From the NCBI RefSeq assembly GCF_006345805.1, contig NW_021827184.1, positions 1 through 11,022 of the forward strand: a stretch of DNA of 11,022 nt, given 5' to 3'. The notes below the pieces were generated by a model. The model saw only the letters and a list, made by a program, of their open reading frames with translations. It was not told the DNA's origin and did no database searches. Made by a program: the position numbers and the translations under genes. The number at the start of each line of letters is the position of its first letter. Positions within the stretch are counted from its first letter, which is position 1. Positions 6,001 to 10,861 of this stretch are shown piece after piece. This DNA comes from Octopus sinensis. Its lineage: Eukaryota.

Positions 6001-6128
6001 AGGAGTGGCTGTGTGGTAAGTAGATTGGAACCGAAAGAAACCCGTTACACACACATATATGTATGTGTGTGGATGCATGCGTATATATGTTTGTTTGTGT
6101 TTGTCCCCACCAACATCGCGTGACAACC
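6001..6128 (+). mobile_element. Family B SINE with ~100-bp internal deletion, 3' truncated
   Basis: AGGAGTGGCTGTGTGGTAAGTAGATTG is joined directly to GAACCGAAAGAAACCCGT...GTGTTTGTCCCC...TGACAACC. Confidence 0.8.
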
Positions 6129-6644
6129 AGTGCGTAACTGGTACTTATTTAATCGACTCCGAAAGGATGAAAGGCAAAGTCGACCTCGGCGGAATTTGAA
6201 CCCAGAACGTAGCGGCAGACGAAATACCTATTTGTTTATTGCCCACAAGGGGCTGAACATAGACGGGACAAACAAGGATAGACAAACGGATTAAGTCGAT
6301 TACTTCGACCCCACTGCGTAACTGGTACTTAATTTATCGACCCCGAATGGATGGAAGGCAAAGTCGACCTCGGTGGAATTTGAACTCAGAACGTAGCAGC
6401 AGACGAAATACCTATTTGTTTATTGCCCACAATGGGCTGAACATAGACGGACAAACAAGGATAGACAAACGGATTAAGTCGATTACATCGACCCCAGTGC
6501 GTAACTGGTACTGAATTTATCGACTCCGAAAGGATGAAAGTCGAAGTCGATCTTAGTGGAATTTGAACTCAGAACGTAAGGACAGACGAAGTGCCGCTAA
6601 GCATATCGCCCGGCGTGCTAACGTTTCCGCCAGCTCTTCCGCCT
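6127..6644 (-). mobile_element. Family A SINE with head-to-tail tandem units, period 183-184 bp
   Basis: CCA(G/C)TGCGTAACTGG recurs at 6127, 6311 and 6494. There is a single A-box head at ~6600-6644; the units align to 689-873. Confidence 0.92.
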
Positions 6645-8396: not shown

Positions 8397-8706
8397 GTTT
8401 ACAAAGTCTAGACAGGTATCTTCAGCTAGCCGGCCATGGTACTCCAGACTGATGACGAGCAAGACTCTGAAACATGTCTCTGGTGGCAGGCTTAGCTGGA
8501 TGGGGGTGCTTATCTCCCCATTGTAAACATAAGCACACAGGAAATGTGTTAAGGCCGACAGAAAGCGTTGATGCTTCCTAGGGCTAAATAGCGGTGGTGT
8601 GATTCCCTTTATGGGACTGTCACGTTAAGTTGTCAGTATACAACTGTTCTATCGTTCCACCACTGCTTATATCTCTCTGAGATATTTAAAAATTTAATAT
8701 TTCATC
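8397..8706 (+). mobile_element. ~310-bp hammerhead-bearing non-coding retroelement (PLE pLTR or retrozyme-like monomer) inserted in (TA)n
   Basis: Unique block bounded by (TA)n on both sides, with an HHR near its 5' end. Its 3' segment 8649-8688 has an inverted copy at 8222-8261 (37/40). Confidence 0.65.
8423..8498 (+). ncRNA. Type I hammerhead ribozyme
   Basis: Stem I CCAGA(8444-48)/TCTGG(8479-83); core CTGATGA(8449-55); stem II GAG-CAAGA-CTC; GAAA(8469-72); palindromic stem III ACATGT; GUC site with cleavage after 8478. Stem I is extended by GCCA/TGGC, GCC/GGC and CAGCTA/TAGCTG. Confidence 0.85.
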
Positions 8707-9409: not shown

Positions 9410-9623
9410 AAAGTTAATCCAAACAAGAATGCACAAAAAAGACACAACAACGCGAGGACGTGGAGCAAATATAGTATTATTGGACACTCAGGAAAGAAGG
9501 AAAGAAGGAGGGTTTAGCGTTTCGAGCGGAGCTCTTCGTCGGAAACATAGGAGAAAGAAAGATCCAAAGAAGGTAAGACAGAGGGAAAAAAATCGCCAAC
9601 GGTACACACGTGGTCACATTTTG
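9410..9623 (-). mobile_element. Penelope-like pLTR fragment between (TA)n tracts
   Basis: ~210-bp block flanked by TA-rich microsatellites, carrying a minimal hammerhead motif on the minus strand. Confidence 0.6.
9512..9546 (-). ncRNA. Minimal hammerhead ribozyme motif, two core deviations
   Basis: Minus strand reads GTTT-CCGACGA-A-GAGC-TCC-GCTC-GAAA-CG-CT-AAAC. Stems I and II pair perfectly; U4 is C and U16.1 is C. Confidence 0.7.
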
Positions 9624-9889
9624 TATATAAATATATATATATTTACATATATACGTACGTATATACATACATATATATGTACATACATACATACATATGT
9701 ATGTATGTACGTATGTATATATATTTAAAGTATGATTATAGATATATGATTTATAAATATAGGGGCTTGAGAGACAGAGCCTGTACGCTTGAAATAGACG
9801 TCAAACGACTACAAACCATTTATGTTAATACTCCGTTCATCCCATGGCTGTATGAGAGGAAGATGGACAAAAAACGGATTTATAAAAAT

Positions 9890-9967
9890 ATTGTGGACAA
9901 CCCTGTATCTTAAAATTTCATGTTTTGCAATATTAAAACTGATTTACAATCTTCAGTAGGGTACACT
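9890..9967 (-). ncRNA. Decayed type I hammerhead ribozyme
   Basis: Minus strand reads AGTGT-ACCCTA-CTGAAGA-TTGTAA...TTGC-AAAA-CATGAAATTTTAAGATA-CAGGGT. The partner arm supplies TTAACGTA-TAGGGT-TGTGC-ACACT (10574-10597), which restores stem I, stem III and a GUA site. Confidence 0.6.
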
Positions 9968-9977
9968 GAAATACGAA

Positions 9978-10030
<53 letters not shown>

Positions 10031-10032
10031 TA

Positions 10033-10069
<37 letters not shown>

Positions 10070-10488
10070 ATATTTCGTAGTAAAACCCCATCACCCATTT
10101 CAGCCATGTGAGTATTTATTCAGAATAATACCGCAGTAAATATGTTTATGCAATGAATAAAGATATATTTATACATAATTAGGATAAAATCATTAATTAA
10201 TAAGTTACCTGTGGCCAGCGTACTTAAATGACTTTATTCTAATTATGTATAAATATATATATATTTATAATTATACTTTAAATATTAATTTAACTTATAT
10301 GGTTTTATTGTACGCCGGCCTCTGATAAATCATTAATTAATGACTTTATCCTAATTATGTACAAATATATATTTATTCACTCCGTAAACATATTTACTGT
10401 GGTATTATTCTTAGTAAATACACATATGGCTGAAATGGACGATGGGGTTTCGTATATATATATGTGAAATATATGTATATACTAGTAT

Positions 10489-10577
10489 TTGTAGAAGTAA
10501 TTCAAAACTTATGAAAGCAAGACATTTGTATTCAGAGCCAGAGACGATTTCAGCCAAGTTGGTAACGAAAGGGTTAA
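10489..10577 (-). mobile_element. piggyBac-like/MITE terminal fragment at a TTAA site
   Basis: Minus strand reads TTAA|CCCTTTCGTTACC, i.e. a TTAA target plus a CCC terminus typical of piggyBac. The block has no counterpart in the other palindrome arm, which keeps TTAA at the homologous position (9910-9913). The second end is not seen. Confidence 0.55.
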
Positions 10578-10861
10578 CGTATAGGGTTGTGCACACTATT
10601 CTTATAAATCAATTTTGTCCATTTTCCTTGCATACAGCCTTGTGATGAACGGAGTGGTAACTTAAATGGCTTGTAGTCTTTTGACATCTATTTCAGGCGT
10701 ACAAGCGCTGTCCTTCCAGCGCCCTTAGTTACAATTATATATTTATAATTATACTTTAAATAGTAATTTAACTTAGACGGTTTTTTTTTGTACGCTAGCC
10801 GTTGATAAATCATTAATTAAGGACTTTATCCTAATTATGTATGTATATATGTATGTATACG

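What the first reader, a model, noticed from the sequence alone, without database searches (positions are those of the whole stretch)
9722..10841. Kilobase palindrome of a circularly permuted, hammerhead-containing ~500-bp unit
Seen: reading outward from the centre (~10225), both arms show the same segment order c-d-(TA)n-a-b, where a is the HHR. The right arm then repeats c (10736-10841 vs 10255-10361, offset ~480). The arms are visibly diverged, so the structure is old. A 32-bp piece is additionally duplicated at the centre (10227-10258 vs 10339-10370). Inference: a more-than-unit-length tandem or circular template with one HHR per unit, integrated in both orientations. This fits a retrozyme or PLE pLTR multimer with fold-back or template switching.
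Basis: partly seen in the sequence, partly recalled or inferred. Interest (0 to 1): 0.75.

Follow-up and report, generated by a model that had tools for sequence, protein, structure and literature searches.

The report
Old two-armed hammerhead retroelement insertion
This 1.1-kb palindrome is one worn, back-to-back insertion of a 509-base non-coding repeat that carries a predicted self-cutting RNA and was likely pasted in by a borrowed Penelope-type retrotransposon enzyme copying RNA from both sides of a DNA cut; only the left half still holds the ribozyme.

Summary
The palindrome is real and old (arms 17-20% apart). It is one head-to-head insertion of a 509-nt non-coding family, seen at 55 places of this genome, whose segment order closes on itself. 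The family carries a type I hammerhead with covarying stems (36 copies).

In the right arm it is replaced by the 80-bp end of an unrelated TTAA-type MITE.

Of 36 two-orientation places, 35 are head-to-head. Their outer ends fall at two fixed points about 80 nt apart, one each, in 23 of the 23 places classifiable (12 were not), mostly next to TA-type microsatellites. This is the known one-sided 'tail' of Penelope-like elements (30-40 nt in print; 36 nt in a coding PLE of this genome). In 10 of 23 insertions the short-end arm holds sequence the other arm lacks, which argues against fold-back and for two priming events.

A circular template, cleavage and the partner enzyme are not shown. This scan has already reported the same pattern for other repeat families of this genome. 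Verdict: a new member of a known kind (retrozyme-like non-autonomous PLE).

The parts
9624..9721 (.). Left flank, (TA)/(TACA) microsatellite: likely target of the insertion
9722..10223 (-). Left arm: unit positions about u207>509>182; outer end at End A (no tail)
   Evidence: 16% from the family majority sequence over 399 sites
9893..9967 (-). Type I hammerhead motif. CUGAAGA at 9956-9950; extended stem II; palindromic stem III; predicted cut between 9906 and 9905. Worn: A-C mismatch at the first pair of stem I
   Evidence: no Rfam match
9977..10066 (.). (TA)n expansion inside the left arm, in place of segment e (about u385-445)
10224..10265 (+). Extra copy of u~233-270 (distal tail up to End B) at the centre; likely a template jump through a shared TA run
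   Evidence: 30/32 identical to 10339-10370
10258..10493 (+). Right arm, first lap: u155-398 (c, d, start of e)
10498..10577 (+). 3' terminal 80 bp of an unrelated ~229-bp MITE with TTAA-CCC...GGG-TTAA ends (piggyBac-like by recalled hallmark). Its TTAA (10574-10577) lies where the stem III loop of the hammerhead was; unit u399-501 and the MITE's left part are missing
   Evidence: (1339 candidates, 40 scored, 88-95% identity)
10578..10842 (+). Right arm, second lap: u~506>509>261; outer end at End B
10763..10842 (+). One-sided ~80-nt tail (between End A and End B), holding a ~27-nt near-palindrome
10843..10859 (.). Right flank, (TATG)/(TA) microsatellite

Best explanation
The stretch is one old head-to-head insertion of a 509-nt non-coding repeat family with a predicted type I hammerhead, likely mobilised in trans by a Penelope-like retrotransposon whose enzyme would prime reverse transcription from both ends of a cut in a (TA)n microsatellite, at two fixed points of the RNA about 80 nt apart. 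Shown: the family, its closed segment order, covarying ribozyme stems, head-to-head geometry, the A|B end pairing, microsatellite flanks, arms that are often not nested, and the MITE replacement in the right arm. Inferred: transcription; hammerhead cleavage; a template longer than one unit (RNA circle, or uncleaved partial tandem); two target-primed cDNAs, one from u~261 and one from u~182, each running back through the ribozyme junction and joined at their truncated ends in the centre; one template jump making the central duplicate. Later events, inferred from the sequence: a TTAA MITE landed in the stem III loop of the right arm, a deletion removed the ribozyme core and most of the MITE, and (TA)n expanded in the left arm. 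The copy is likely inert.
For: Family: 55 places after merging and dropping one segmental duplicate; a 28-nt tail word matches 92 times vs 0 for the control. A natural 510-nt lap from cut site to cut site is at G000:C10. Ribozyme (36 copies): 83.2% of cells paired vs 75.1% shuffled (0/500); 70 cells with changes on both sides vs 29 (0/500); slid controls 28-46%. Unit folded as a circle: z -11.2 (majority sequence) and -3.8 (natural unit), 40 shuffles each; ribozyme strand -140 vs -108 kcal/mol for the other strand. Geometry: 35 head-to-head, 0 tail-to-tail, 1 complex, 19 one-strand of 55; both ends classifiable in 23 of 35, all 23 A|B. In 13 new places found later, 3 were head-to-head, each with End B on one side and u183, u166 or u152 on the other. 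48 of 70 outer ends are followed by an alternating purine/pyrimidine run vs 698 of 4415 background. Arms of one insertion differ by 18.0% vs 22.8% between insertions and share more non-majority letters, 5.6% vs 2.0% (30 vs 3670 comparisons). A coding RT + GIY-YIG element of this genome has the same geometry with a 36-nt tail: tail | no tail in 8 of 8 complete head-to-head copies among 30 loci. One unit copy is fused in the same sense directly behind a GIY-YIG coding piece of a second PLE family (G000:C1, L111). Literature: inverted 5'-truncated copy, one-sided tail and (TA)n bias are PLE hallmarks (PMC8557442; PMC3846280).
Against: No Rfam hammerhead match. The window's motif does not adopt the hammerhead fold as its minimum-energy structure (z 0.8). 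The number of pairs with a change on both sides (10) does not exceed shuffles (259/500), and relatedness among subfamilies inflates the other measures. No array of two or more complete units and no sequence shared with a coding PLE was found; the PLE fusion is a single case. The A and B windows (u155-200, u255-283) were drawn after seeing the data; both lie in AT-rich stretches where alignments end loosely, and End B is inside the unit's own TA run, which inflates the flank count. 12 of 35 head-to-head places have an end elsewhere. One of the 30 within-insertion pairs is a recent duplication (1.8% apart). Later deletions could make arms look non-nested. Searches scored only the best 38-40 candidates each.
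Confidence: 0.72

Rival explanations
1. Fold-back or self-priming: one cDNA is made from End B, folds back or switches to its own strand, and is copied forward to End A, so one arm is a copy of the other.
For: Proposed for EN+ PLEs from palindromes at inverted junctions (PMC3846280, passages). In this window the left arm (about 480 unit positions) fits inside the right arm. Arms of one insertion are closer to each other than to other copies. In 13 of 23 insertions the A arm is nested in the B arm.
Against: The A arm has at least 40 unit positions that the B arm lacks in 10 of 23 insertions, by 300 or more in 6; neither arm contains the other in 7 of 23. Centre start points are spread over the unit.
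Confidence: 0.12
2. The pieces are terminal-repeat (pLTR) stubs of an autonomous Penelope-like element that was not found, not an independent non-coding element.
For: The geometry equals that of coding PLEs. Retrozymes and pLTRs are related in frogs (10.64898/2026.07.22.740005). Only the best candidates were scored.
Against: Every junction of the unit is crossed without an intervening reading frame (d>e in 25, e>a in 39 of 55 places). Long-range b:d pairing spans the monomer. No RT or GIY-YIG frame is joined to the unit in the expected place among 118 of 171 frames scanned or by tblastn over 160 loci, apart from the single fusion.
Confidence: 0.12
3. The palindrome arose after insertion (inverted duplication, chance neighbouring insertions) or is an assembly artefact.
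For: The window is a whole 11-kb contig. No laid contig spans the stretch, and none bridges the centre with 31 letters on both sides. A recent inverted duplication of this family exists elsewhere (C6, arms 1.8% apart).
Against: The arms differ by 17-20% and by different later insertions, which an assembly fold-back would not produce. The same geometry recurs in 35 places. Contigs of two studies cross the centre joint with 0-1 differences (43-58 letters left, 15 right), and one covers 10549-10835 with 2 differences.
Confidence: 0.04

Closest known systems
Metazoan non-LTR retrozymes (Cervera and de la Pena 2020, PMC7229834: passages plus sections 13 and 17 read; Li, Clavereau and Pollet, bioRxiv 10.64898/2026.07.22.740005: parts 1-3 of 5 read, supplements not seen)
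   Same: Non-coding unit of a few hundred nt, low GC (31%), type I hammerhead, highly self-paired predicted circle, co-occurrence with PLEs; U-U at the base of helix II as in axolotl HHR_Amex2.
   Different: No tandem array of two or more complete units among 55 places; copies are dispersed, at most about 1.6 units per arm, mostly head-to-head with two fixed ends. Inverted insertions are not mentioned in PMC7229834 (0 hits for 'inverted'). Cleavage, expression and circles are untested here.
EN+ Penelope-like element insertions with inverted 5'-truncated copy and one-sided tail (Craig et al. 2021, PMC8557442: passages and section 15; Arkhipova et al. 2013, PMC3846280: passages)
   Same: Head-to-head inverted copy, tail at only one end, (TA)n targets, no readable target-site duplication, partial tandems, hammerhead in the repeat.
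   Different: No RT or GIY-YIG frame; tail about 80 nt instead of 30-40; hammerhead with extended stem II rather than minimal.
L1 twin priming
   Same: Two target-strand 3' ends prime cDNA, giving an inverted 5' part.
   Different: In L1 the two parts do not overlap on the RNA and the second site is variable. Here 19 of 23 arm pairs share 40 or more unit positions and both sites are fixed.

Membership tests
Type I hammerhead ribozyme | Core CUGANGA / GAAA / UH with stems I-III, stem I open | tested here: met
   36 family copies, stems covary; window left arm 9893-9967. Not matched by Rfam. Absent from the right arm.
Type I hammerhead ribozyme | Self-cleavage at the predicted site | not testable with these tools
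   Indirect only: one copy begins at the cut site; 6 of 52 centre starts lie within u495-u16 vs 3.2 expected.
Non-LTR retrozyme | Non-coding unit of 50-1000 nt, low GC, no LTR | tested here: met
   509 nt, GC 0.31; no Pfam hit for the few long frames that overlap the unit.
Non-LTR retrozyme | Tandem repeats with at least two consecutive complete hammerheads | tested here: not met
   Longest segments are 818 and 807 nt, with one complete hammerhead each; only top candidates were examined, so arrays may exist elsewhere.
Non-LTR retrozyme | Highly self-paired predicted circle | tested here: met
   z -11.2 and -3.8; AT-rich palindromes contribute.
Non-LTR retrozyme | Expressed as linear and circular monomer RNA | not testable with these tools
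   No RNA holder listed; no evidence either way.
EN+ PLE insertion product | Head-to-head inverted 5'-truncated copy | tested here: met
   35 of 36 two-orientation places.
EN+ PLE insertion product | One-sided tail of 30-40 bp | tested here: inconclusive
   One-sided in 23 of 23 classifiable places, but about 80 nt long.
EN+ PLE insertion product | Microsatellite target bias | tested here: met
   48 of 70 ends vs 698 of 4415 background, partly inflated at End B.
Autonomous PLE | RT plus GIY-YIG reading frame | tested here: not met
Autonomous PLE (partner) | Sequence shared with the pLTR of a coding PLE | tested here: inconclusive
   None with two coding families; one direct fusion to a GIY-YIG piece. 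Other PLE families were not examined.

The most novel reading that the evidence does not exclude
The PLE 'tail' is the distance between two fixed priming sites used at once by the two cut target strands on one circular, hammerhead-processed RNA. Each reverse transcriptase runs round the circle, so the overlapping, non-nested arms are a fossil record of double-primed rolling-circle retrotransposition and exclude self-priming. The single fusion to a GIY-YIG piece would name the borrowed enzyme.
Probability: 0.35. Interest if true: 0.6.

Novelty: new member of a known kind. Interest (0 to 1): 0.33.

Why it matters
How Penelope-like elements make their inverted repeats and one-sided tails is stated to be unresolved (PMC8557442, section 15), and PLE mobilisation of animal retrozymes is proposed but not shown (PMC7229834, Discussion). 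This family gives countable constraints: strict A|B end pairing, an unusually long tail of about 80 nt, and non-nested arms that argue against fold-back. The copy itself is old and damaged. The same pattern was already reported by this scan for younger families in this genome, which are better material for tests.

Tried and rejected
Rfam, whole window and 9860-9985: no hammerhead family; only microsatellite-driven or chance hits. Hammerhead in the right arm: rejected. GIY-YIG frame 1.2 kb from the C10 copy: it belongs to a young, abundant coding PLE with no similarity to the unit beyond TA runs; rejected as partner and used as comparator. The RVT_1 frame in L101 lies on the opposite strand and was not followed. 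Second coding PLE family (670 candidates, 40 scored, 19 loci read): no similarity to the unit at E<0.01; only the one fusion remains. Pile-up of 5' starts at the cut site: 6 of 52 vs 3.2 expected, not convincing. Target-site duplications are unreadable in microsatellites. Sequencing runs: no RNA holder listed. Reads could be laid only on 10068-10835, all as contigs; parts without cover prove nothing. No genome-wide count of the ribozyme was obtained. Paper searches: hammerhead + Penelope + octopus gave 1 paper; Penelope-like + twin priming + inverted gave 2 unrelated papers; searches found no description of this family or of double priming on retrozymes. Subscription papers and bioRxiv supplements were not searchable and may bear on this. 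Rows dropped before counts: C8_83495162 (segmental duplicate), hits under 45 nt or 55 bits, hits over 70% TA, and AT-rich unit positions in the divergence counts. The 546-nt 'left arm' printed for the window is inflated by alignment through the centre; about 480 is right.

Full report
Observation. The window is a whole 11,022-nt contig of a 2.72-Gb genome; its short repeats look like octopus SINEs (recalled, not tested). A self-comparison gives an inverted match 9722-10481 / 10762-10052 at 73% (E 1e-121) and a direct match 10258-10370 / 10736-10850 at 88%. The arms differ by 16.9% over 142 sites and 20.5% over 219 sites, so the structure is old and unlikely to be an assembly fold-back. Contigs from two studies cross the centre joint with 43-58 letters on the left and 15 on the right, below the tool's 31-letter bar, and none spans the stretch.

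The unit. Four searches of the genome with parts of the repeat (38-40 candidates scored each) gave 56 places, 55 after dropping a segmental duplicate. A natural copy on C10 runs 510 nt from one predicted cut site to the next; the majority sequence is 509 nt, 31% GC. Numbering from the cut site (u1), the order b-c-d-e-a closes on itself: a>b is crossed in 40, b>c in 37, c>d in 22, d>e in 25 and e>a in 39 of 55 places. In the 39 places from queries without the ribozyme core, 25 cross the cut site. Copies are a median 13.5% from the majority sequence (93 segments). Folded as a circle the unit is more stable than dinucleotide shuffles (z -11.2 majority, -3.8 natural; 40 shuffles), with b pairing to d, and the ribozyme strand folds better than its complement (-140 vs -108 kcal/mol; G-U 323 vs A-C 256 among changed pairs).

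The ribozyme. Segment a is a type I hammerhead: stem I, CUGANGA, an extended stem II with an internal loop, GAAA, a 3-bp stem III in a palindrome, and an AUA cut triplet. On 36 copies, 83.2% of cells pair (shuffles 75.1, 0/500) and 70 cells change on both sides (29, 0/500); slid controls give 28-46%. The count of covarying pairs (10) does not beat shuffles (259/500), and subfamily structure inflates these measures. Rfam does not detect it, and the window copy does not fold into it at minimum energy. A model of the motif finds one hit in the window, 9893-9967 minus, and none in the right arm. The left copy has an A-C mismatch at the first pair of stem I.

The right arm. 10498-10577 matches a separate family (1339 candidates; 39 other hits at 88-95%). 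In 10 of 11 loci read, an upstream TTAA-CCC end is present, at 226-229 bp in 8; piggyBac-like by recalled hallmark. Its TTAA sits where the stem III loop was, and u399-501 plus the element's left part are missing.

Insertion geometry. Of 55 places, 35 are head-to-head, none tail-to-tail, 1 complex and 19 one-strand. Outer 3' ends cluster at End A (u~175-184) and End B (u~258-267). With windows drawn after inspection (u155-200, u255-283), both ends are classifiable in 23 of 35, and all 23 are one A and one B (nominal p 1e-7); the other 12 have one or both ends elsewhere. Three further head-to-head places among 13 found by a later pattern search agree, one with its short end at u152, just outside the window. 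The window is A (9722) | B (about 10842), giving an 80-nt one-sided tail at 10763-10842. 48 of 70 ends run into an alternating purine/pyrimidine stretch, against 698 of 4415 background samples; End B lies in the unit's own TA run, which inflates this. A young coding PLE of the same genome (RVT_1 E 8e-7, GIY-YIG E 0.003, both just under Pfam's cut-offs) shows tail | no tail in 8 of 8 complete head-to-head copies among 30 loci, with a 36-nt tail, plus one tail-to-tail case. This is the arrangement described for PLEs (PMC8557442; PMC3846280).

Mechanism. Fold-back predicts that the A arm lies within the B arm. It does not in 10 of 23 insertions (40 or more extra unit positions; 300 or more in 6); neither arm contains the other in 7; 19 of 23 pairs overlap by 40 or more positions. 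Later deletions could mimic part of this. Arms of one insertion are closer to each other (18.0%) than to others (22.8%) and share more non-majority letters, as expected from one source. The best reading (inferred) is that both target 3' ends prime cDNA on the family RNA, at u~261 and u~182, through AT-rich microhomology; each cDNA runs back, often through the ribozyme junction, and the truncated ends join in the centre. The central duplicate (10224-10265, u~233-270) joins u155 through a shared TA run and reads as one template jump. Circle versus uncleaved tandem RNA is open. Eleven segments exceed one unit (the window's own entry is inflated) and one passes the cut site twice, but one copy starts at the cut site and spans about one lap plus End B, as a linear cleaved RNA would. 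I give the circle about even odds.

Partner. No reading frame is part of the unit (118 of 171 frames of 95 aa or more scanned; tblastn over 160 loci). At one place (L111, G000:C1) the unit starts 1-2 nt after a same-sense piece of the GIY-YIG frame of a second PLE family. This may be a template switch onto the helper's RNA, but it is 1 of 56 places and that family shares no detectable sequence with the unit.

Comparison and novelty. It works like an animal non-LTR retrozyme and lands like an EN+ PLE. It meets the retrozyme features of size, non-coding state, type I hammerhead and self-pairing, but not the tandem-array criterion of the Li et al. preprint in the places read; expression and cleavage are untested. 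I therefore call it retrozyme-like and do not file it as a proven retrozyme. My searches found no description of this family. Earlier notes of this scan report the same two-fixed-end, head-to-head pattern for other 467-560-nt families in this genome; none matched this sequence. They are unchecked AI notes and not support; my A|B reading was written before I saw them. Verdict: real, partly misread, a new but old and damaged member of a known kind; interest 0.33.

Noticed in passing
window 8444-8486 (+): A second, minimal type I hammerhead-like motif (CUGAUGA, GAAA, palindromic stem III) of another repeat, seen by eye; it does not fold as such at minimum energy.
   Followed up: partly
window about 9410-9600 (-): Another PLE-like terminal repeat with a degenerate hammerhead-like core near 9515-9550, seen by eye.
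   Followed up: partly
L107:3300-4030 (G000:C10) and L143-L172: Young (93-98%), very abundant (5303 candidates) RT + C-terminal GIY-YIG PLE with a Cys-rich linker, (TA)n targets and a one-sided 36-nt tail.
   Followed up: partly
L111:3490-4590 (G000:C1): Piece of an older GIY-YIG PLE family fused in the same sense directly to unit position u307; possible template switch between helper and parasite RNA. Locally rearranged by a recent inverted duplication.
   Followed up: partly
window 10498-10577; L062-L072: High-copy ~229-bp MITE with TTAA-flanked CCC...GGG ends; the TTAA loop of palindromic hammerhead stem III is a ready target for it.
   Followed up: partly
L178, L182, L189, L194: Diverged subfamily of the 509-nt unit with a different b segment but the same tail palindrome and End B.
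   Followed up: no
window 6127-6590 and 648-833: 2.5 tandem copies of a 184-bp SINE-like unit (91% matches), inverted relative to a copy at 648-833.
   Followed up: no
L104 (G000:C6) and L105 (G000:C24): Recent local duplications (98% identical) that carry old copies of the unit; not primary insertions.
   Followed up: partly
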